A stretch of 64,000 bases of DNA from Candidatus Kaiserbacteria bacterium (GTDB taxonomy: Bacteria > Patescibacteriota > Minisyncoccia > Phycocordibacterales > Phycocordibacteraceae): NCBI GenBank assembly GCA_029288835.1, contig JARIGN010000004.1:22313-86312 (forward strand), in the 5' to 3' direction. The position numbers and the translations under genes were made by a program. Of the stretch, positions 2,780 to 56,700 are shown in pieces (positions within the stretch are counted from its first letter, which is position 1; every line of letters begins with the position of its first letter). The notes beneath the pieces are model-generated. The model ran no database searches. It had not been told where the DNA came from and saw nothing but the letters and a program-made list of their open reading frames with translations.

Positions 2780-5419
2780 ATGCCAACAGGTGAAAAACTA
2801 CCAAAAATTACAGCTAATGAAAAAGGCGTAACTGTTTCCGGTCACAAAGAGGGTGTGACTGTAAATAATAATTACAAAACTGAGATTCATATCCACGGAT
2901 CAGCTCCTGAATCTCATCCGACCACAACTGTAACTGAGCCGCAAAGAATTGTTTTTTTCTCAACGCAGCGAAAAAGATTAGAAAAGATAGAAAAGCACCG
3001 CGCAAGAATGCAGGAAGCAGTTAAGGCGCTGCGAGAAAAAGAAGGAAAACAAGATAACAAAGAGTCTCCCAACGTCGAGTCCCCTAAAGCTGAAACTGCC
3101 GGCGCTGCAGCTACTCAGACTCCTAATGCAGCACCTAAAACAGAAAGTGCTCCAGAGAAGACCACTGAAAAGCTAAAGCCGCTTCGCGACAAAGGAATAG
3201 AAGAGGTAATGGAGAAGATGAAGGCTCGAAATGTGGCTGAAGCTTCTGCCTCAACGCCAAAGCCAGCAGCAGAGAAAAAACCGGATGCCTTTACTCCTGA
3301 TGAAAATAGGCTACTTAGGCTCGCCCTTGCTTCGAGAGGACCAGAAGCAATGAGGGAACTTCAAAAGCAGCTGCAATTGGATAAAGGGGAAAAGATTGAT
3401 GGAAAGTTAGGAAAAAGAACAAACCAAGAGCGCAGAGCGAAAGCAATGGAGCAGGCTGAAAAAATGCTTACTGCGGAAGGAGCATACTTTGTAGCACTCA
3501 AAGAATTTCACAGAACAAAAGGCTTCCATAGTGTCATTGGCGACAAATTTAACCCAGACGGTAGAATGCTTCCGCCAAATGTGCAGGCTTTAAAAGATGC
3601 ATGGATTGCTTCTCGCTCCTCATATGCGGAGTTTATGCGTAACAGTGCCGAAGATAGCCATCGAAAAAGGCATGAGAGGTATACCGGAAAGACTGCAGAG
3701 CTCCTCACCGACCGTGTAATGGAGCGGTACCAACGGCGCTTCATGGTTAAGGAAGTGGTCTTAGGTGCAGAAAAGGCAGAGCAAAGGGCACGTCTTGAGG
3801 GGCTTTCAACGCGTGACAAAAAAGGAATTGAAAAGTTTTTTGATAAGTACCAAAAGGGAATTAGTAAAGGCCTTCGGATATTTGGTACAGGTGCGATGAT
3901 AACGATGGGCATGGCTGCGGGAATTAGCGGATCTCCAATCGTTGGAATTGGAGCACTTCTATTCGGGGGCGCATCTGCTTTTAGTCTCTATAAAGCAGCA
4001 AAGGCAAAAGATGGTTCGGAAGAAAAGAAAAAATGGGAAAGAAGAGCACAGCTCACTAGCTTTGCAGGTATATTTGGCTGGGTTGGAGACAAGCTCATTC
4101 GCGGTGGTCATTCTTTAAACAAAACAGTTGATAAAGCTCATCAAACTCTTGAAAAGAGAGAGGGTCTCGGCGACCTTACCAGCGTGCAAAACATGAAGAA
4201 TATTGCCCATGAAAGGAAGCGAGCAACACAGGCAGAGGAAGTGGTTGAAGCAGATGCACGCATGGGAAGACTCGCAGGGTCGCTAATAGGAGGTGCGGCA
4301 GTAGGGGGTGCTCTGCATGGCCACCTTGGTCTTGGAGGAGGCTTTGAGCACCATAAGACAGTAAGTGAACTTTCTATTGGAGAGCACGCTGGGGGTCACA
4401 CCATTTATGACGGAGAAAGGCTTCTCGGACATTTTGCGAATAAGCTTCACAACCATCACTTCCCGGGAGGACATGTCCCAAAGTCAGTGCAAGCTTTTGA
4501 AAAGCTCCTTCACGTGAAAGGGCACAAAGGTTTTGCATGGAGCGCGGGGGAAAATAGAGCTTCAAAACTCCTGGGGTTTGAGGGTCCTAATGGAAGCGTT
4601 GTGATGCAGCCACACGACAGTCTAAAGCTCCTTGATAATGGAGACATTATTCTCCATAGGCCGGGACATCCGGAAATGGATACCCTTATTATGGATTCAC
4701 AAGGAAATCCTCACCAGATAGATACCTTTGTATGGCACCAGGCGCCCGTAGGGCATCATGCGCCTGGTTCTCCTACTCACGAAATGCATGAAGGCCATGA
4801 TATGAGTGCTGCCGCTTCAAATGACACCTCCCATGACCATGATGATGTTGCATTAAATAATGAGCAGCACCAAAAAGACCTTGCTGAAGACGCTGCGCGC
4901 CACTACACTCAGCCACCGACATCAACTCACATACCAGTACAGTCTACTGTTTCCCAACCAGAAAATGCGGCAAGCACCCAACAAGCATACGAAAACTTCA
5001 AACATAATTTCGCTGAACTAAAAGCCGAGCACCAAGCTGAGCGCGCTGCAGAGCATACTGCTCCACCGCATAGTGAAGTAATGTCTGCCGTTGCGGCACA
5101 TCAGCCTCCTCATGCACCTGACCTAGGCCCTATTGTGCAGCCACCACCGCATATTATTCAAGGGTCGGAGCATGCCGTAGCTACTGATAATGGGCATATT
5201 GAAGCAGAGTCTGCTGCTACTTTTCACGCGGAGCCTGGATCAGTGGCAGCATGGAATCAGGCGCGCGTGGCACCTGCAGGAACAGAAGTCCCGTATATAA
5301 GTCATGTTGATCCTAGTGGACCCCACTGGAATTCATGGGTTTCGGACGGAAAGGGACAAGTCCATGAAATATTGGGAGTTGACTCAGCTAATGGGAAACA
5401 CCTCCCTCCAGCAGCGTAG
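2780..5419 (+). CDS. Large hypothetical membrane protein (879 aa): Lys/Glu-rich N-terminal region, central TM helices, His-rich C-terminal region
   Basis: Long ORF. Hydrophobic stretch GLRIFGTGAMITMGMAAGISGSPIVGIGALLFGGASAFSLY. Repeated His clusters (HGHLGLGGGFEHH, HNHHFPGGH, HEMHEGHDM, SHDHDD). No recognisable catalytic motif. Lower GC than the core genes. Confidence 0.55.
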   Translation: MPTGEKLPKITANEKGVTVSGHKEGVTVNNNYKTEIHIHGSAPESHPTTTVTEPQRIVFFSTQRKRLEKIEKHRARMQEAVKALREKEGKQDNKESPNVESPKAETAGAAATQTPNAAPKTESAPEKTTEKLKPLRDKGIEEVMEKMKARNVAEASASTPKPAAEKKPDAFTPDENRLLRLALASRGPEAMRELQKQLQLDKGEKIDGKLGKRTNQERRAKAMEQAEKMLTAEGAYFVALKEFHRTKGFHSVIGDKFNPDGRMLPPNVQALKDAWIASRSSYAEFMRNSAEDSHRKRHERYTGKTAELLTDRVMERYQRRFMVKEVVLGAEKAEQRARLEGLSTRDKKGIEKFFDKYQKGISKGLRIFGTGAMITMGMAAGISGSPIVGIGALLFGGASAFSLYKAAKAKDGSEEKKKWERRAQLTSFAGIFGWVGDKLIRGGHSLNKTVDKAHQTLEKREGLGDLTSVQNMKNIAHERKRATQAEEVVEADARMGRLAGSLIGGAAVGGALHGHLGLGGGFEHHKTVSELSIGEHAGGHTIYDGERLLGHFANKLHNHHFPGGHVPKSVQAFEKLLHVKGHKGFAWSAGENRASKLLGFEGPNGSVVMQPHDSLKLLDNGDIILHRPGHPEMDTLIMDSQGNPHQIDTFVWHQAPVGHHAPGSPTHEMHEGHDMSAAASNDTSHDHDDVALNNEQHQKDLAEDAARHYTQPPTSTHIPVQSTVSQPENAASTQQAYENFKHNFAELKAEHQAERAAEHTAPPHSEVMSAVAAHQPPHAPDLGPIVQPPPHIIQGSEHAVATDNGHIEAESAATFHAEPGSVAAWNQARVAPAGTEVPYISHVDPSGPHWNSWVSDGKGQVHEILGVDSANGKHLPPAA

Positions 5420-5442
5420 TGTTATTACATAATTACATTTCT

Positions 5443-5733
5443 ATGACCTCTTTTGATGAAATTAAAGAAGCCCTCGACTTCGATACTATGACAAAAGCAG
5501 AGCAAGATGATTTATTGCTTGAATTGAATGAACTTATCTTTAAAGGGACTATGATTCGAGTTCTAGAGGTTATGGATGAAAAGGATAAGGAAGGCTTTCA
5601 TGATCTTATTGATCAGAATGCAAGCAGCGAAGAATTGTCACGTTATATCCAATCACACGTCTCAAATATTGACTTTTTTGTTGCAGAGACTGTGCAGGAT
5701 TTGACGCAGGATATACAAGCAGTGCTAAAATAG
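5443..5733 (+). CDS. Small acidic hypothetical protein (~97 aa; alternative GTG start 5419)
   Basis: ORF directly after the 879-aa protein. AT-rich. No known motif. Confidence 0.4.
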   Translation: MTSFDEIKEALDFDTMTKAEQDDLLLELNELIFKGTMIRVLEVMDEKDKEGFHDLIDQNASSEELSRYIQSHVSNIDFFVAETVQDLTQDIQAVLK

Positions 5734-19267: not shown

Positions 19268-19340
19268 GGGCCGTTAGCTCAGTTGGTAGAGCATCTCATT
19301 TGCAATGAGAGGGTCGCAGGTTCGAATCCTGTACGGTCCA
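19268..19340 (+). tRNA. tRNA-Cys (anticodon GCA), no encoded CCA
   Basis: Folded by hand: 7-bp acceptor GGGCCGT/ACGGTCC; D-arm GCTCAGTTGGTAGAGC; anticodon stem CTCAT/ATGAG with loop TTGCAAT; T-arm GCAGGTTCGAATCCTGT. Confidence 0.85.
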
Positions 19341-19347
19341 CAAAAGT

Positions 19348-19397: not shown

Positions 19398-19829
19398 TTG
19401 CCGCCAATGCTTTACCCAGACCGCCTGGGTAACTCTAGGCGAAAGGCTCGACCCAGTTATGCCGAAAGGCGTGAGTGGGGAAGGGAGGCAGAGGAGCGTT
19501 TTTTTCGAATCTGCGCAGAAAGCTTGCGCACGGACAAGCTTCCCGAGTGGGTAGAAAGTGTACGTGAAGCCACTGTCGAGGAAGACCATCAAGGCATTGA
19601 TGCGTGGCTTCTCACTAGTGATCCTTTTTATATTCCTATTAATGTAAAGCGTTCGATTCAATCCGGCCGCGCTAGTAGGCGGCGGCAGTGGAACACTCGC
19701 TCACTTCGAGACCGGCGAAAAGACATAGTGGAAGTAGTAGCCTCTCCACATGCCTCTGATGAAGCGATTCTGGGCCAAATAATAAGAAAAATAGAGAAAT
19801 GGCGCCGTACCTACGGGTACATCCGCTAA
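19398..19829 (+). CDS. Hypothetical protein (143 aa), Arg-rich
   Basis: ORF with good RBS. No known motif. Confidence 0.5.
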   Translation: MPPMLYPDRLGNSRRKARPSYAERREWGREAEERFFRICAESLRTDKLPEWVESVREATVEEDHQGIDAWLLTSDPFYIPINVKRSIQSGRASRRRQWNTRSLRDRRKDIVEVVASPHASDEAILGQIIRKIEKWRRTYGYIR

Positions 19830-19907
19830 AATAACCGCCCAGGCGGTTATTTTTATAAACTTGACAATTATGAATTTAAATGCTATTTTTTCTATAGACA
19901 TCCTCAT

Positions 19908-20558
19908 GTGGGGGAATTGAACCGGCCGAGGAGGGCCACTATGACAAACATGATTCAAAGTGAGACTTCCCCGATCCCAGCCACGCTGGAAACTGCGGAA
20001 GTCATCATGGTGAAGTACCAGGTCTCGAACCCAAACCGGATTCCGGAAATCTTTGAGCACGTTGAACGTCCGCCCGACTTGACGGTGGATATCGAGCAGC
20101 AGAAGCTAGCTCGCTCCCAGGGAATCCCATACGATATCTTCAAGAAGGGTCGCGTACGCCGGGGTCGGGTCGACACGGGCGAGAACACGCTCAAGGAGAA
20201 CGGCCTGTTTGATACGGGACGTCTCATCGATGGGTTGCTGGCGAGCAATCGCTTCCGTCTCGTCGACGCCGTCACCTATGAACGGCCCCTCGAGCCGAAT
20301 GAGGATCAACGTCCTCAATCCCGCAAGTTGATCATGGTCCTCGTATTCTCCTCGAGAGCTGAAGATCAACCGATCTACGTGGCCAAAGACCTCGCCTATG
20401 CCGCTGCGCTCAAGATGCTCGGCAACATGGTCTGGAAGTTCTGCTCGGTCTGGGCGAACCGCGACCACACTATAACGGTGAACCTGTCACTCCTCGACCC
20501 CGATCGGAAAAGGAGAAAAAGCATTCAGATCAAGGACGGTCAGATCGTCGCCACCTAA
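19908..20558 (+). CDS. Hypothetical protein (216 aa; GTG start, alternative ATG 19941), strongly GC3-rich codon usage
   Basis: ORF followed by a terminator. Codon composition unlike neighbours. Confidence 0.5.
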   Translation: MGELNRPRRATMTNMIQSETSPIPATLETAEVIMVKYQVSNPNRIPEIFEHVERPPDLTVDIEQQKLARSQGIPYDIFKKGRVRRGRVDTGENTLKENGLFDTGRLIDGLLASNRFRLVDAVTYERPLEPNEDQRPQSRKLIMVLVFSSRAEDQPIYVAKDLAYAAALKMLGNMVWKFCSVWANRDHTITVNLSLLDPDRKRRKSIQIKDGQIVAT

Positions 20559-20586
20559 CGTCGACGCTAATTAGCCCTCCTCACTT

Positions 20587-20618
20587 CAAGCCGAGCCCGC
20601 AAGGACTCGGCTTTTTCT
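20587..20618 (+). terminator. Intrinsic terminator (gccgag...ctcggc + TTTTT)
   Basis: 6-8-bp GC stem followed by tttttcttt. Confidence 0.6.
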
Positions 20619-20624
20619 TTATTT

Positions 20625-22049
20625 TTAATCGCCCACTTGGAAAAGATACTTTTCGTTCTTTGAGTGAATGACTTCACCAAACCTGTCAAGCAAGTGTCCA
20701 ATTGCGTGCTCTGACAATACTTTTTTGGAATCAACAAACGTGTTTGATATAAAATCTGGAGGTAAGCCACTAGCAAGAGTAAACATGTGTGAAAGCATTG
20801 TGGTAGCATATTGTCCTTTTCCTAAATCAAATTCAAATATAATTCCTTCCGGTACAATCTCTGCTTTTTTAAAATCTACGTGAGATCGTGTTGGTGTGGA
20901 ACGGTTTTTTATTATTATTTGCGGGAAAGGACGAAGGTTCTCAAACTGTGAAGGACTGAATCCTATTGGATCAAGTATAGAACTATAAATTTGTTGGTCA
21001 GCTCGTAAAGGACTAAGAAAAAATGGTAACGCTTTTGGAACAGGTTTATTATTCAAAATAAGTTCAGATATTTTTGCATTAAAGAAAAGGGAGGATAAAG
21101 CATATAGCCAAAAAGTAATTTGTTCTGGAAGTGTTTGGAGCGCTCCACGATAATCGCCGGGATGATTCTTAAGATGCTGTACCACCCGCAGTTCATTTTC
21201 AAAGATAAGGGGAAAACGTAAGAGATCTTCATATACTACATTCCAATTCGGGATGTTCTTTTGAAGCGATTTTCTTATATCTTTAAAAAATGGTATCTCT
21301 CTAGGTCCTTGGTACGTGAGAAAATCCAACACTGCTTCTTCATAATTGCCGCGTAATATTGAAAGTGCCCACTGATAATTCCGTAATCGCGCAACACCAA
21401 ATCTTTGTAAGTAAAAAAAATTATAAAATCCATTTTCCTTAACTTCTTGTAATTTGTTTGCAAATTGGGCGAATGATTCTGGATTAAAAAAATCTTGCCG
21501 AGTTCGTACTAAAATAGTAAATTTGTTACCTTCAAGATAACCTCTCTGCATGCTTCCTTTGCCAAGCTCCCACTCTGCAAGAAAATAATAAGGAGAAGAA
21601 ATATTTTTTAAAGCTTCAGGTGAAGCATGTCGTATGGAAATTTTCTGTGCAGTAAGCGCACTCTTATCCTTGAGCCCAGCAAAGCTAATATCTTCAGTTC
21701 GAATTCTAAGCTGCTTCGCTAAATCTTCTGCAGCTTCAAAGGTAGAAAGATTACATTTAACAAGAGTTGCATAATACGTTCCGGCGCTATGCGTAGGTGC
21801 CTTCTCTTCTGTTGCGAACACGCTCTTAACAGTTCCATTAATCTTTTCTTCTACAATGAAGTCTTCAGGCCAGAATTTTATATATCCATGAGGAAATTCC
21901 TCCTTACCTGGAATTTGAATTCCTAATTCCAGTAGAGTTTTGGCATCATCAATATAGGTTTGTTCTTTAAATAGCTCAGGATTTTTTAAATATTCTTTTT
22001 CTAATTCCTGAAACTCTGCTTTTTTTATTTCGAGCCGATCAGTATTCAT
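20625..22049 (-). CDS. truD: tRNA pseudouridine synthase TruD/Pus7 family, long form (474 aa)
   Basis: PEDFIVEE, catalytic FAGLKDKSALTAQ (GxKD) and NFFYLQRFG motifs match TruD. The gene is markedly AT-rich relative to its flanks. Confidence 0.8.
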   Translation of the reverse strand: MNTDRLEIKKAEFQELEKEYLKNPELFKEQTYIDDAKTLLELGIQIPGKEEFPHGYIKFWPEDFIVEEKINGTVKSVFATEEKAPTHSAGTYYATLVKCNLSTFEAAEDLAKQLRIRTEDISFAGLKDKSALTAQKISIRHASPEALKNISSPYYFLAEWELGKGSMQRGYLEGNKFTILVRTRQDFFNPESFAQFANKLQEVKENGFYNFFYLQRFGVARLRNYQWALSILRGNYEEAVLDFLTYQGPREIPFFKDIRKSLQKNIPNWNVVYEDLLRFPLIFENELRVVQHLKNHPGDYRGALQTLPEQITFWLYALSSLFFNAKISELILNNKPVPKALPFFLSPLRADQQIYSSILDPIGFSPSQFENLRPFPQIIIKNRSTPTRSHVDFKKAEIVPEGIIFEFDLGKGQYATTMLSHMFTLASGLPPDFISNTFVDSKKVLSEHAIGHLLDRFGEVIHSKNEKYLFQVGD

Positions 22050-22051
22050 AA

Positions 22052-23128
22052 CTATTTACCCTTTCCGTAATACTTTTTCAAGAGCGCAACATGCTCTGGG
22101 TACGTCGCGGCACAGTGGAAGTTTCCGTGTGAGTCATGGAAATAGTAGAGGCAGGAGGTCTGCACGGGGTTTAAGGCAGCGAGTACCGCGGCAACAGACG
22201 GGTTTGCAATTGGTCCAGGCGGAAGACCCGCGTGCTCGTACGTGTTATAGGCTGAAGAAATATATTTGTCCTTTGGCTGCGCGACAGGCCACCAGTTTCC
22301 CGCAATACTGCCGCTCTTTGTCGCCTTTGCATACTGGAGCGTCGCGTCTATTTGCAGGTTCATATTGTTAAAAAGACGATTCCAGATGATGCCGGAAATG
22401 ATACGCATGTCATCTGGTCCTGCTGCTTCACGCTCAAGGAGGGAAGCGATCGTGAGTGCTTCAGAAAGCGGCACTTGTTCTTGGGTGGTGGTGCTGTAGT
22501 GCGAAAGGATGTCCTTGCTAAACGAAGCTGAGACAATTGCAGCAGCTTCACTCGGTGTGGTTTCGCTTGAGACGGCATAGGTTCCCGGTTCAAAAATACC
22601 TTCTGAAATTTCTGTGCTCGTTCCTTCTGTCTGAGCAGTGTTTGCGGAAACATCGTTTATGAACTCTGTACGCTGCTTTGCATTCCACCCGAGCGCAGAG
22701 CCAAACACCGTCGCAACCTGCTCTTTTCGGTACCCCGGAAGAATGGTGACAAGCCTGCCGTCTGCAGAAGCAAGCGACTGGTATAAGGAAGTGTTATTAA
22801 GAAGTGAGGCAAACCATCCAAGCAGTTCAGAAAAGTTTCCAACCGAGGCCGTCAGCGAAGAAGTGTGTTCAGTAAAATAAGCATTTGCTTCTGCATTTTC
22901 AACTATCTGCTTTTTGGAAGGGATTACCGACACAGGGAAGGGTGCAGGAGTAGTAGGCTTTAGTACCACAGGAGCGCTTTGTTCATTGTGCGCGGTCAAA
23001 AGAAAAACCTGCGGCACGATGAACGCAACCGTTGCGAAAATGACCAGTATGAGAGCGGTAACCACGAGCGGCTTACGGCCTTTTGAAGACACTTTAGTAG
23101 CCATACGAATACCTAAACTGTAACGCAA
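22052..23128 (-). CDS. mltG: Endolytic murein transglycosylase MltG (YceG family)
   Basis: N-terminal TM. C-terminal GLPPGPIANPSVAAVLAALNP...LYYF signature. Confidence 0.8.
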   Translation of the reverse strand: MRYSLGIRMATKVSSKGRKPLVVTALILVIFATVAFIVPQVFLLTAHNEQSAPVVLKPTTPAPFPVSVIPSKKQIVENAEANAYFTEHTSSLTASVGNFSELLGWFASLLNNTSLYQSLASADGRLVTILPGYRKEQVATVFGSALGWNAKQRTEFINDVSANTAQTEGTSTEISEGIFEPGTYAVSSETTPSEAAAIVSASFSKDILSHYSTTTQEQVPLSEALTIASLLEREAAGPDDMRIISGIIWNRLFNNMNLQIDATLQYAKATKSGSIAGNWWPVAQPKDKYISSAYNTYEHAGLPPGPIANPSVAAVLAALNPVQTSCLYYFHDSHGNFHCAATYPEHVALLKKYYGKGK

Positions 23129-29251: not shown

Positions 29252-31014
<1,763 letters not shown>

Positions 31015-56006: not shown

Positions 56007-56651
56007 ATGGCGTCAATACCTGATACACAACATTCGTATGCTATACAAATGTATGAGTCAGGTAACAGTGCTCAAGAAGTGGCAAATTACTATACCGTAA
56101 GCGTGGGAGCTGTCTTTTATATATTGAAGAAATATAAAATACCAAGGAGAAGTACGAGGGATTCGAATGCTATCAAGTATGATCGGGCAGCACCTTCGTT
56201 TATTCTCAAAGAAAACCTTACTCAGGATCAAAAAGAGTTAAAAACTATTGGAGTGATGCTGTATTGGGCTGAAGGGTATAAGATTGGAAAAAATACTATA
56301 GATTTCGCTAACTCAGACCCGTCAATGGTCGTTTTGTTCTGTAAATTTTTACGTCAGATATGTGGAATTACTGAATCTAAAATTCGTTGTTCTTTGTACT
56401 GTTATGACACCCAAGATTTAGCAGTACTTCATTCTTATTGGAGTTCGCTTCTTAGTGTTCCTCTAGCGCAGTTTACAAAACCCTTTATTAAAAAGGCTGA
56501 TGAAGACAGCAAAAGAGGGCCAAGAATGGTGCATGGCCTTGTGCATGTTCGATATTGTGATAAAAAGTTATTACGGCAGGTACTTAATTGGATTGCTGAA
56601 TATCAAATCGAAAGCGTCGGTGGCGGAGTGGTCAATCGCATTGGACTGTAA
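56007..56651 (+). CDS. HTH + LAGLIDADG-like (homing-endonuclease-like) protein; 3' end overlaps tRNA-Tyr by 38 nt
   Basis: N-terminal HTH (YAIQMYESGNSAQEVANYYTVSVGAVFYILKKYKIP). LYWAEGYKIGKNTIDFANSDPSMVVLFCKFL resembles the LAGLIDADG-type motif block. AT-rich gene. Confidence 0.45.
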   Translation: MASIPDTQHSYAIQMYESGNSAQEVANYYTVSVGAVFYILKKYKIPRRSTRDSNAIKYDRAAPSFILKENLTQDQKELKTIGVMLYWAEGYKIGKNTIDFANSDPSMVVLFCKFLRQICGITESKIRCSLYCYDTQDLAVLHSYWSSLLSVPLAQFTKPFIKKADEDSKRGPRMVHGLVHVRYCDKKLLRQVLNWIAEYQIESVGGGVVNRIGL

Positions 56652-56700
56652 ATCCAACGACTTAATGTCTACGAAGGTTCGAATCCTTCCCGGCGCACCA
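56614..56700 (+). tRNA. tRNA-Tyr (anticodon GTA), long variable arm, CCA encoded
   Basis: Hand fold: acceptor GCGTCGG/CCGGCGC with two G-U pairs; D-arm GCG-GAGTGGTCAAT-CGC; anticodon stem TTGGA/TCCAA with loop CTGTAAA; variable arm CGACTTAATGTCTAC; T-arm GAAGGTTCGAATCCTTC; terminal ACCA. Confidence 0.75.

What the first reader, a model, noticed from the sequence alone, without database searches (positions are those of the whole stretch)
20625..22049. truD is a sharply AT-rich island next to GC-rich neighbours
The TruD assignment is secure from its motifs. The 1.4-kb gene is visibly much AT-richer than the flanks: long runs such as aaatcaaattcaaatataattcc and ttttttattattatttgc, and my estimate is below 40% GC against roughly 55% for mltG and the upstream island.

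At 474 aa it is also longer than gammaproteobacterial TruD. It looks more like the archaeal/eukaryotic Pus7 type. This is consistent with recent horizontal acquisition of a tRNA-modification enzyme.

The region from 19.3 to 22 kb is therefore a three-way compositional mosaic anchored on tRNA-Cys.
Basis: seen in the sequence. Interest (0 to 1): 0.5.

Follow-up and report, generated by a model that had tools for sequence, protein, structure and literature searches.

The report
AT-rich truD with GC-rich partner
The tRNA pseudouridine synthase gene truD really is far more AT-rich than the rest of this Patescibacteria (small uncultured bacteria) genome, but it looks like a long-resident gene rather than a recent import, and it forms a conserved pair with an unknown, consistently GC-rich neighbour gene.

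Summary
ORF 20625-22049 (-) is TruD (Pfam E 7e-57) with 36.2% GC against 49.7% for the window. Its third-position GC is 26% against 52±9%, the lowest of 60 ORFs, and its tetranucleotide signature is also the most atypical.

Recent horizontal acquisition is not supported. The ~475-aa, Pus7/archaeal-like form is shared by every Patescibacterial TruD found. The two nearest TruDs (57-58% identity) lie in syntenic relatives, one with the same mltG→truD→←partner order. TruD has diverged as much as its flanks, groups with those relatives in 100/100 bootstraps, and is not accelerated. No att repeats or mobility genes were found. The nearby tRNA is Ala(TGC), not Cys.

Across 58 other truD loci, truD averages 3.7 GC points below its neighbours; this window is the extreme tail.

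New here: the GC-rich "upstream island" is an uncharacterised ~205-aa gene with no Pfam hit and no structural neighbour. It lies convergent to truD in 54 of 79 loci. It is GC-richer than its host in 48 of 49 loci, and its RNA folds more stably than shuffled controls.

Why truD stays AT-rich is unresolved. A replacement from an unsampled AT-rich relative cannot be excluded.

The parts
20625..22049 (-). truD: a Patescibacteria-type, Pus7/archaeal-like tRNA pseudouridine synthase of 474 aa. It is strongly AT-rich (36.2% GC, GC3 26%).
   Evidence: Pfam PF01142 E 6.7e-57. The motif AGLKDKSALTAQ aligns to M. mazei TruD AGTKDKRALTTQ, and G125/K127/D128 are invariant in alignment A1. Composition.
19908..20558 (+). 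Partner gene: an uncharacterised protein family (216 aa from GTG 19908; more likely 205 aa from ATG 19941, which has GGAGG about 7 nt upstream). It is convergent to truD and GC-rich (56.2% GC, GC3 72%, the highest in the window).
   Evidence: An HMM of alignment A2 finds homologs in 59 of 79 distinct truD loci. Of these, 54 are convergent with a 16-232 nt gap. No Pfam, NCBIfam, PADLOC or PDB-sequence hit. The AF2 model has pLDDT 88.2 and no structural neighbour. The gene is GC-richer than its host in 48 of 49 loci.
20588..20625 (+). GC-rich hairpin followed by a U-run, lying between the two convergent genes. It is a likely intrinsic terminator of the partner gene and overlaps the truD stop codon.
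   Evidence: Sequence read. Fold of 20556-20632 has dG -17.5 kcal/mol, with the stem at 20588-20613 followed by UUUUUCUUUAUUUUU. The simple consensus scan missed it.
19861..19889 (+). Promoter-like site (TTGACA, 17-nt spacer, TG, TATTTT) in the AT-rich spacer upstream of the partner gene.
   Evidence: This is a consensus match only. The spacer 19830-19907 is 29% GC.
22052..23128 (-). mltG (YceG family), directly upstream of truD. Its stop codon is followed by 2 nt and then the truD ATG, so co-transcription and translational coupling are likely. GC is host-typical at 49.7%.
   Evidence: Pfam PF02618 E 5e-49. Junction sequence read. The same mltG→truD order occurs in L001/L010 with a 17-nt gap.
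19268..19341 (+). tRNA-Ala(TGC). It marks the conserved edge of a variable interval between pterin-4a dehydratase/ddl and mltG.
   Evidence: ARAGORN and Rfam. The same tRNA sits beside the same genes in L001, L003 and L009.
19398..19829 (+). Lineage-specific 143-aa ORF with host-like GC (51.6%) and no homolog in any related locus.
   Evidence: No tblastn hit in L001, L003 or L007-L009 or in any other locus.

Best explanation
truD here is a functional, long-resident gene. It is one half of a two-gene module, truD plus a convergent unknown partner, that is conserved across Patescibacteria. In this family the module sits just downstream of mltG.

Its low GC is a gene-specific compositional state maintained in place, not the signature of a recent foreign origin. 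truD is systematically AT-shifted wherever the module occurs, and this genome is the extreme case.

Shown:
- orthology, synteny and congruent divergence with the flanks;
- normal purifying selection on the protein;
- an AT excess that is mainly synonymous;
- recurrence of the AT shift across the family;
- the opposite, GC-buffered state of the partner.

Inferred, with low confidence: the cause is selection on the mRNAs rather than on the proteins or on translational optimality. An AU-rich truD message rich in rare codons (TTA, AGA, ATA) and with little structure would keep this pseudouridine synthase scarce, even though it appears coupled to mltG. The partner message is kept GC-rich and strongly folded.
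For: Synteny:
- L001/L010 has UvrA-UvrC-Ddl-Pterin4a-tRNA-Ala ... partner←, ←truD, ←mltG ... ATP synthase, as in the window.
- L003 has the same pair about 1.4 kb from mltG.

Divergence:
- TruD is 57.4/57.7% identical to L001/L003. MltG is 56.1/56.3, Ddl 62/63 and Pterin4a 52.
- L001 against L003 gives TruD 59 and MltG 64.
- {window, L010, L003} is recovered in 100/100 NJ bootstraps.

Selection on the protein:
- Mean distance to 73 outgroup TruDs is 0.604, against 0.596 and 0.608 for the two relatives.
- 58 of 60 highly conserved columns are kept.
- Lineage-specific amino-acid changes are no more AT-directed than in L003.

Synonymous sites are saturated against all relatives (4-fold identity 0.23 against 0.27 expected). 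GC3 therefore reports a present state, not inherited history.

Family-wide pattern over 58 loci:
- truD minus host is -3.7 GC points (t = -7.9, p = 8e-11) and -5.0 GC3 points.
- truD is the lowest-GC ORF in 21 of 60 comparison loci.
- Other syntenic cases exist. In L039 against L037 the flanks have GC3 0.55-0.68 against 0.35-0.48, but truD has 0.38 against 0.42.

Mechanics of replacement:
- Both flanking genes (mltG at 2 nt, the partner at 66 nt) have non-AT composition, and the transitions fall at the gene ends.
- A precise homologous replacement would need a donor with near-identical flanks. Such a donor would be a close relative of similar GC (inference).
- No att repeats or mobility genes were found.

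Translational optimality is not the axis. The deviations of truD and of the partner from host codon usage each correlate 0.01 with the high-expression axis (RpoA, DnaK, ribosomal proteins, AtpA/D).

RNA folding of the partner:
- Against dinucleotide shuffles, z averages -4.3 in 16 of 16 loci; truD averages -0.1.
- Against synonymous-codon shuffles, z averages about -3.3 over 22 loci; control genes average about -0.8.
Against: - The size of the anomaly (GC3 z -3.4 even within the family distribution), the discordant tetranucleotide signature and the AT-genome-style codon usage (TTA 31% against 4%, AGA 24% against 5%, ATA 42% against 15%) are what a recent import from a genome of about 41% GC would look like.
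- The relatives nearest by flanking genes lack truD and the partner at this locus, with no remnants: L007 (MltG 70%) and L008/L009 (UvrC 76%, AtpA 86-89%). At least two losses, or a transfer, are needed.
- The interval between tRNA-Ala and mltG has variable content.
- No agent that would hold one gene AT-rich has been demonstrated.
- Overall, truD GC tracks host GC with slope 1.1, so the offset is not a fixed set-point.
- The partner of this very window shows only weak excess RNA folding (z -1.0 to -2.5).
- The folding controls are noisy (8-12 shuffles each), and no consensus structure was found.
Confidence: 0.55

Rival explanations
1. Recent replacement of the resident truD, or re-insertion of the module, by an allele from an unsampled, AT-richer (about 38-44% GC) Patescibacterium of the same family. 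On this reading the low GC is an un-ameliorated donor signature.
For: - GC3 is 26% against the 51% predicted from host GC. The composition implies a home genome of about 41% GC (GC1 gives 45.6%, GC2 43.7%, GC3 37.5%).
- 4-fold GC (26%) is far below intergenic GC (44%).
- The tetranucleotide signature is the most atypical in the window.
- truD and the partner are absent from the closest relatives by flanks.
- Content of the tRNA-Ala to mltG interval varies between relatives.
- The module sits in different contexts in other lineages, so it does move.
- This genome carries other sharply bounded, lineage-specific AT-rich ORFs, for example 29252-29626 inside the atp operon.
- Sampling around this lineage is sparse: the best MltG hit is 70% identical.
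Against: - No donor is known. The best TruD in 5.8 billion proteins is 58% identical, and it belongs to the syntenic relatives.
- TruD distances match those of the flanks and the tree is congruent.
- Only truD is AT-rich. The partner and the 143-aa ORF between it and the tRNA are not, so a segment-wide transfer does not fit.
- The junctions fall exactly at the gene ends, 2 nt from the mltG stop, in the same arrangement as L001.
- There are no repeats or integrase.
- Across the family, the truD GC3 offset does not correlate with the host GC3 of its nearest TruD neighbour (r = -0.003, n = 59).
- The AT shift is a family-wide mean, not a rare event.
Confidence: 0.2
2. Neutral decay. truD is a weakly expressed accessory gene that has escaped whatever force keeps synonymous sites at about 50% GC in this genome (codon selection or GC-biased gene conversion). 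It has drifted to the AT-rich mutational equilibrium.
For: - The shift is mostly synonymous (GC3 z -3.4; GC1 and GC2 z -1.5 and -1.6).
- The gene has a patchy distribution: 184 clusters against more than 2989 for MltG.
- Accessory genes being AT-richer than core genes is a general pattern (established knowledge).
- Three other non-conserved ORFs in the window have similar GC of 36-38%.
Against: - Intergenic DNA is 44% GC, well above truD's 26% at 4-fold sites.
- The equally accessory partner goes the opposite way in 48 of 49 loci.
- The protein is under normal constraint.
- In the GC-richest hosts truD is not AT-shifted at all, contrary to decay towards a common equilibrium.
Confidence: 0.15
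3. Recent acquisition of an archaeal or eukaryotic Pus7 gene.
For: Sequence scores are higher against archaeal TruD and eukaryotic Pus7 than against E. coli TruD. NCBIfam models 389-449 positions long score higher than the models 349-368 positions long.
Against: The same holds for the whole Patescibacterial clade. All 80 genome loci and all named homologs are Patescibacteria. Identity to M. mazei TruD is low and covers only part of the protein. Any archaeal link would be ancient and clade-wide.
Confidence: 0.01
4. Assembly chimera. The contig comes from a metagenome bin, and the AT-rich gene was stitched in from another organism.
For: The source appears to be a single 95.5-kb NCBI contig seen once, and the composition switches sharply.
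Against: - The junctions are biologically coherent: mltG stop, 2 nt, then the truD ATG with an upstream purine-rich stretch, and a hairpin terminator shared with the convergent partner.
- The same gene order and the same AT-rich/GC-rich contrast occur in independent assemblies (L001, L003, L039 and many others).
- There are no repeats at the junctions.
Confidence: 0.03

Closest known systems
E. coli TruD (tRNA-Glu pseudouridine-13 synthase; PDB 1SB7, 1SI7, 1SZW)
   Same: Same Pfam family, PF01142. The catalytic region with the G-x-K-D motif is conserved.
   Different: The window protein is about 125 aa longer. E. coli TruD is only weakly similar (E about 2e-8 for the single sequence, 5e-15 for the clade profile) and the match covers only the N-terminal half. 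The protein scores below every NCBIfam TruD cut-off. No partner gene is known for E. coli truD (my own knowledge).
Archaeal TruD/Pus7 (M. mazei, PDB 1Z2Z) and eukaryotic Pus7 (human 5KKP, yeast 7MZV)
   Same: These are the best solved relatives: profile E 3e-43, 3e-34 and 8e-33. M. mazei TruD is of similar length (446 aa) and aligns in both the catalytic and the C-terminal regions.
   Different: Identity is still low. The window protein belongs to a distinct clade restricted to Patescibacteria. Substrate positions (U13, U35, or mRNA UGUAR sites) are untested. UGUAR is not enriched in the local mRNAs.
tRNA-adjacent genomic islands (classical signature of horizontal transfer)
   Same: Atypical GC, codon usage and tetranucleotide signature. 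A tRNA gene lies 1.3 kb away. The interval has variable content among relatives.
   Different: There is no integrase and no att repeat. The tRNA is separated from truD by two genes that are not AT-rich. The AT-rich segment is exactly one gene. That gene has syntenic orthologs and a congruent tree.
Conserved enzyme plus accessory-subunit pairs in tRNA modification (for example the two-subunit eukaryotic tRNA-modifying enzymes reviewed in PMC4615748)
   Same: A modification enzyme that is persistently linked to a small, non-catalytic-looking protein. Here the linkage is genomic, in 54-59 of 79 loci.
   Different: The pair is convergent rather than in one operon. No physical or functional interaction has been shown. 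The partner has no recognisable fold relative.

Membership tests
TruD/Pus7 pseudouridine synthase family (Pfam PF01142) | Match to the family profile above the curated threshold | tested here: met
   193.6 bits against a cut-off of 27, E 6.7e-57, two stretches.
TruD/Pus7 pseudouridine synthase family (Pfam PF01142) | Catalytic aspartate in the conserved G-x-K-D motif | tested here: met
   AGLKDKSALTAQ (D128) aligns with AGTKDKRALTTQ of M. mazei TruD. G125, K127 and D128 are invariant in 25 clade members.
TruD/Pus7 pseudouridine synthase family (Pfam PF01142) | Pseudouridine formation at U13 of tRNA | not testable with these tools
   Needs enzymology or pseudouridine mapping.
NCBIfam 'tRNA pseudouridine(13) synthase TruD' equivalogs (TIGR00094, NF002153-NF002160) | Score at or above the curated equivalog cut-off | tested here: not met
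   Best scores are NF002160 at 126 bits (cut-off 428) and TIGR00094 at 122.5 bits (cut-off 172.2). This is a divergent subfamily, so the exact substrate should not be assumed.
Archaeal/eukaryotic Pus7-type rather than proteobacterial TruD-type | Greater sequence similarity to Pus7/archaeal TruD than to E. coli TruD | tested here: met
   Single sequence 1e-22 and about 1e-15 against about 2e-8. Clade profile 3e-43, 3e-34 and 8e-33 against 5e-15.
Archaeal/eukaryotic Pus7-type rather than proteobacterial TruD-type | Placement inside the archaeal/eukaryotic clade in a phylogeny | not tested
   Archaeal, eukaryotic and proteobacterial sequences could not be obtained for a tree.
Recently acquired genomic island | Composition atypical for the host | tested here: met
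   GC z -3.8, GC3 z -3.5, and the tetranucleotide correlation is the lowest of 132 segments.
Recently acquired genomic island | Phylogenetic incongruence, or divergence out of line with the flanks | tested here: not met
   Identity to syntenic relatives equals that of the flanks. The clade has 100/100 bootstrap support. There is no rate acceleration.
Recently acquired genomic island | Absence from the same site in close relatives | tested here: inconclusive
   Present at the site in L001, and nearby in L003. Absent in L007, L008 and L009, which are closer by flanking genes. Both loss and gain scenarios fit.
Recently acquired genomic island | Mobility hallmarks: integrase, or direct repeats of a tRNA 3' end | tested here: not met
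   No integrase-like Pfam hit in the ORFs scanned between the tRNA and mltG. There are only short AT-rich chance repeats.
truD-partner module of Patescibacteria (defined here) | A member of the partner family lying convergent to truD within about 250 nt of its 3' end | tested here: met
   The gap in the window is 66 nt. The partner scores E 1.4e-60 against the A2 HMM (although the window sequence is itself one of the 18 rows of A2), and 54 of 79 loci share the arrangement.
truD-partner module of Patescibacteria (defined here) | Partner GC above host GC and truD GC below host GC | tested here: met
   Window values are 56.2%, 50.6% and 36.2%. The partner exceeds its host in 48 of 49 loci; truD is below its host in 83% of loci.

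The most novel reading that the evidence does not exclude
truD and the unannotated partner form a previously undescribed two-gene system of Patescibacteria. In it, opposite nucleotide-level selection acts on two convergent genes. The partner message (or its antisense, reached by truD read-through) is kept GC-rich and highly folded whatever the host GC. The truD message is kept AU-rich. The partner protein, which has no structural relative, would then be a cofactor, specificity factor or regulator of a Pus7-like pseudouridine synthase.
Probability: 0.3. Interest if true: 0.65.

Novelty: new variant of a known kind. Interest (0 to 1): 0.45.

Why it matters
For the finding as posed, this is a cautionary case. 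A gene with a textbook 'foreign' composition, lying near a tRNA, turns out to be a syntenic ortholog. Its odd composition recurs wherever the gene occurs, so GC and tetranucleotide screens would call it horizontal transfer wrongly.

Beyond that, three points may interest people who work on RNA modification in reduced genomes and on what sets base composition gene by gene:
- Patescibacterial TruD is Pus7/archaeal-like.
- It is almost always paired with an unknown gene that has no Pfam match and was not found in the protein collection for this record.
- The two genes carry opposite compositional biases that appear independent of host GC, and the partner RNA shows excess folding.

The pair offers a natural test of selection on mRNA composition, because two adjacent genes in the same genome go opposite ways across hosts from 32% to 62% GC.

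Tried and rejected
1. Exact look-up of the window's TruD on contigs found nothing on record.
2. The homolog search for the partner in the 5.8-billion-protein set found nothing, not even itself. Exact look-ups of both start variants were also negative.
3. The single-sequence AF2 model of the partner was unusable (pLDDT 41). An alignment of representatives was needed.
5. Pfam, NCBIfam, PADLOC and PDB-sequence searches of the partner were empty.
6. Rfam found no RNA family in the region apart from the tRNAs.
7. The idea that the composition differences reflect expression-linked codon bias was rejected (r = 0.01 for both genes).
8. The idea that the truD or partner mRNAs carry extra Pus7/TruD target motifs (UGUAR, UCUAG) was rejected: they are not enriched and are slightly depleted.
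9. A conserved consensus RNA structure in the partner gene was not found. RNAalifold on a 19-sequence codon alignment returned no pairs.
10. A test for whether truD's GC offset follows the host GC of its nearest TruD neighbour, which would signal pervasive transfer, gave r = -0.003.
11. A search for truD or partner remnants in the truD-less relatives L007-L009 found none.
12. The three other AT-rich ORFs do not share a tetranucleotide signature with truD: r = 0.06, limited by noise.
13. Two literature searches found nothing on TruD in Patescibacteria.
Full report
**1. Observation**

The ORF at 20625-22049 on the minus strand encodes 474 aa. It matches Pfam TruD at E 6.7e-57.

- Its GC is 36.2% against 49.7% for the window. 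It is the global minimum of all gene-sized sliding windows (mean 49.6%, sd 3.1).
- Among 60 ORFs it has the lowest third-position GC: 25.9% against 52.2±8.8.
- Against 43 ORFs of at least 150 aa, the z-scores are -3.8 for GC and -3.5 for GC3.
- GC at 4-fold sites is 26.3% against 51.6±8.7, and intergenic DNA is 44.4%.
- The composition-corrected tetranucleotide signature correlates -0.07 with the rest of the window, against 0.40±0.13 for other segments. This is the lowest of 132.
- Host-rare codons are 3-8 times enriched: TTA 31% against 4%, AGA 24% against 5%, ATA 42% against 15%.
- The switch is sharp at both gene ends.

mltG is 49.7% GC, not about 55%. The tRNA at 19268-19341 is tRNA-Ala(TGC), not tRNA-Cys.

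**2. What the protein is**

The 120 homologs listed (of 184 found) are mostly 458-494 aa, and those that carry a name come from Patescibacteria/Parcubacteria lineages. A scan of one genome per species returned 80 loci, all Patescibacterial metagenome-assembled genomes.

The length of 474 aa is therefore the clade norm. By sequence the clade is closer to archaeal TruD and eukaryotic Pus7 than to E. coli TruD:

| Target | Single sequence | Clade profile |
|---|---|---|
| M. mazei TruD | 1e-22 | 3e-43 |
| Human Pus7 | about 1e-15 | 3e-34 |
| Yeast Pus7 | about 1e-15 | 8e-33 |
| E. coli TruD | about 2e-8 | 5e-15 |

The protein falls below every NCBIfam TruD equivalog cut-off. The catalytic G-x-K-D motif is intact. 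The 'Pus7-like' remark is therefore right, but it is an old, clade-wide trait.

**3. Is it a recent import?**

The two nearest TruDs (57-58% identity) lie on contigs that are syntenic with the window. The shared order is UvrA, UvrC, Ddl, pterin-4a dehydratase, tRNA-Ala..., truD, mltG..., ATP synthase. L001/L010 has exactly the window's local order: mltG→truD, then a convergent ORF.

Identity (%) between the window and the two syntenic relatives:

| Protein | vs L001 | vs L003 |
|---|---|---|
| TruD | 57.4 | 57.7 |
| MltG | 56.1 | 56.3 |
| Ddl | 62 | 63 |
| UvrC | 69 | 70 |
| AtpA | 85 | 83 |

- In an NJ tree of 76 TruDs, window+L010+L003 form a clade in 100/100 bootstraps.
- The window protein is not accelerated. 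Its mean distance to 73 outgroups is 0.604, against 0.596 and 0.608 for the relatives.
- It keeps 58 of 60 highly conserved columns, and its lineage-specific replacements are no more AT-directed than those of L003.
- There are no att-like repeats and no integrase.

These results do not fit a recent acquisition from a distant source.

Three observations keep a within-family replacement alive.
- The relatives closest by flanking genes lack truD at this site and show no remnants: L007 (MltG 70%) and L008/L009 (UvrC 76%, AtpA 86-89%). This needs at least two losses or a transfer.
- The interval between tRNA-Ala and mltG holds different genes in different relatives.
- Regressions over 58 loci imply that the gene's composition 'belongs' to a genome of about 41% GC.

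Against a replacement:
- Only truD is AT-rich. The genes on both sides are not, including the partner and the 143-aa ORF next to the tRNA.
- A precise swap between mltG (2 nt away) and the partner (66 nt away) would need a donor with nearly identical flanks. Such a donor would be a close relative of similar GC (inference).

**4. A family-wide pattern**

- Across 58 other truD loci, truD is on average 3.7 GC points and 5.0 GC3 points below the pooled neighbouring ORFs (p = 8e-11 and 3e-7).
- In the per-ORF comparison of 60 loci it is below its neighbours in 83% of loci and is the lowest-GC ORF in 21 of 60.
- The window is the extreme (z -3.1 for GC, -3.4 for GC3). L039 (-21.8 GC3 points), L028 and L085 come close.
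- L039 and L037 are syntenic. Their flanking orthologs differ in GC3 by 0.13-0.30 (0.55-0.72 against 0.35-0.48), yet truD has 0.38 against 0.42. Synonymous sites are saturated there.
- Synonymous sites are also saturated between the window and L010. GC3 therefore reflects a present state, not inheritance.
- The truD offset does not follow the host GC of the nearest TruD neighbour (r = -0.003). Pervasive recent transfer is therefore not the source of the shift.

**5. The GC-rich 'upstream island' is a conserved partner gene**

The ORF 19908-20558 (+) probably starts at ATG 19941. It has no Pfam, NCBIfam, PADLOC or PDB-sequence match. It is absent from the protein collection under either start. 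In L001 the gene caller took the opposite strand.

Genomic linkage and family:
- An HMM of 18 homologs finds the family in 59 of 79 distinct truD loci.
- 54 of these are convergent to truD with a gap of 16-232 nt.
- At least 5 of the 20 loci without a hit have 600 nt or less of sequence downstream of truD.
- mltG is adjacent to truD only in the window and L010. The pair, not its context, is what is conserved.
- The family has about 73 representatives at 50% identity.
- Conserved motifs are LVKFxFTN..IPxGI, GRxREGRVDTG, HVWxN and TxNxxGRxPD. Most members have an acidic tail, which the window copy lacks. Two members are circular permutants.

Composition and RNA folding:
- The partner's GC exceeds host GC in 48 of 49 loci (mean +8.2 points, GC3 +16.5).
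- Its GC is buffered against host GC with slope 0.43, against 1.10 for truD.
- Against dinucleotide shuffles, the partner RNA folds with z averaging -4.3 in 16 of 16 loci; truD averages -0.1.
- Against synonymous-codon shuffles, z is -3.0 to -5.8 in 7 of 8 loci in the first batch, with controls averaging +0.2. In the second batch z averages -2.9, with controls at -1.4 and truD at -0.6.
- The effect is real but moderate, and the estimates are noisy. In the window's own copy it is weak (z -1 to -2.5).
- No consensus structure emerges.
- Neither gene's deviation lies on the expression-linked codon axis (r = 0.01).

**6. Local anatomy**

- A promoter-like site (TTGACA, 17-nt spacer, TATTTT) lies at 19861-19889, in a 29%-GC spacer upstream of the partner.
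- A hairpin plus U-run at 20588-20625 separates the convergent genes.
- The mltG stop is followed by 2 nt and then the truD ATG.

**7. Verdict**

- The 'Pus7-like' remark is supported as a clade-wide trait.
- Recent horizontal acquisition is not supported.
- The tRNA identity was wrong.

The best reading (0.55) is a resident, functional truD inside a conserved truD-partner module whose two genes are held at opposite compositions. Selection at the mRNA level is the proposed cause, but this is an inference.

The rivals are:
- an unsampled within-family replacement (0.2);
- neutral AT decay (0.15);
- an assembly chimera (0.03);
- a recent archaeal import (0.01).

The truD gene itself is a new member of a known family. 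The conserved pairing with opposite compositions appears undescribed: two literature searches found nothing.

Noticed in passing
The same tRNA sits beside pterin-4a dehydratase/ddl in L001, L003 and L009.
   Followed up: yes
window 29252-29626: An AT-rich (37% GC) 124-aa ORF with a weak membrane-protein-like match lies between atpG and atpD. It has no homolog in L001, L003, L008 or L009. atpG and atpD are adjacent in L001, L003 and L008 (L009's atp genes are fragmented). This looks like a lineage-specific insertion in a conserved operon.
   Followed up: partly
window 5419-5733 and 56007-56651: Two more sharply AT-rich ORFs (35.6% and about 38% GC) with no Pfam match. The second abuts tRNA-Tyr at 56614-56700.
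   Followed up: partly
window 19908-20558; L001 11519-12151: The partner gene is missing from the 15-billion-protein collection under either start, so it seems to be uncalled in the source record. In L001 the gene caller chose the opposite strand. GC-rich genes with open antisense frames may mislead callers.
   Followed up: partly
L023 1521-2090; L031 11463-12029: The partner homologs here are circular permutants. The LVKFFFTN..IPxGI segment, normally N-terminal, lies at the C-terminus.
   Followed up: no
L039 9983-11440 vs L037 8641-10101: A second syntenic pair in which the host flanks differ by 0.13-0.30 in GC3 but truD does not (0.38 against 0.42). 4-fold sites are saturated.
   Followed up: partly
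L009 (whole locus): The ATP synthase, uvrA and other genes are split into fragments. This suggests frameshift errors in that assembly, so identities to it are lower bounds.
   Followed up: no
proteins P0263 (860 aa) and P0274 (4194 aa): Two giant proteins match residues about 15-68 of the partner, in 6 and 9 separate matched stretches respectively. This could be a shared small domain or a chance or low-complexity match.
   Followed up: no
window 19398-19829: A 143-aa ORF between tRNA-Ala and the partner has host-like GC and no homolog in any fetched locus. It has only an insignificant restriction-enzyme-like match (E 0.007).
   Followed up: partly
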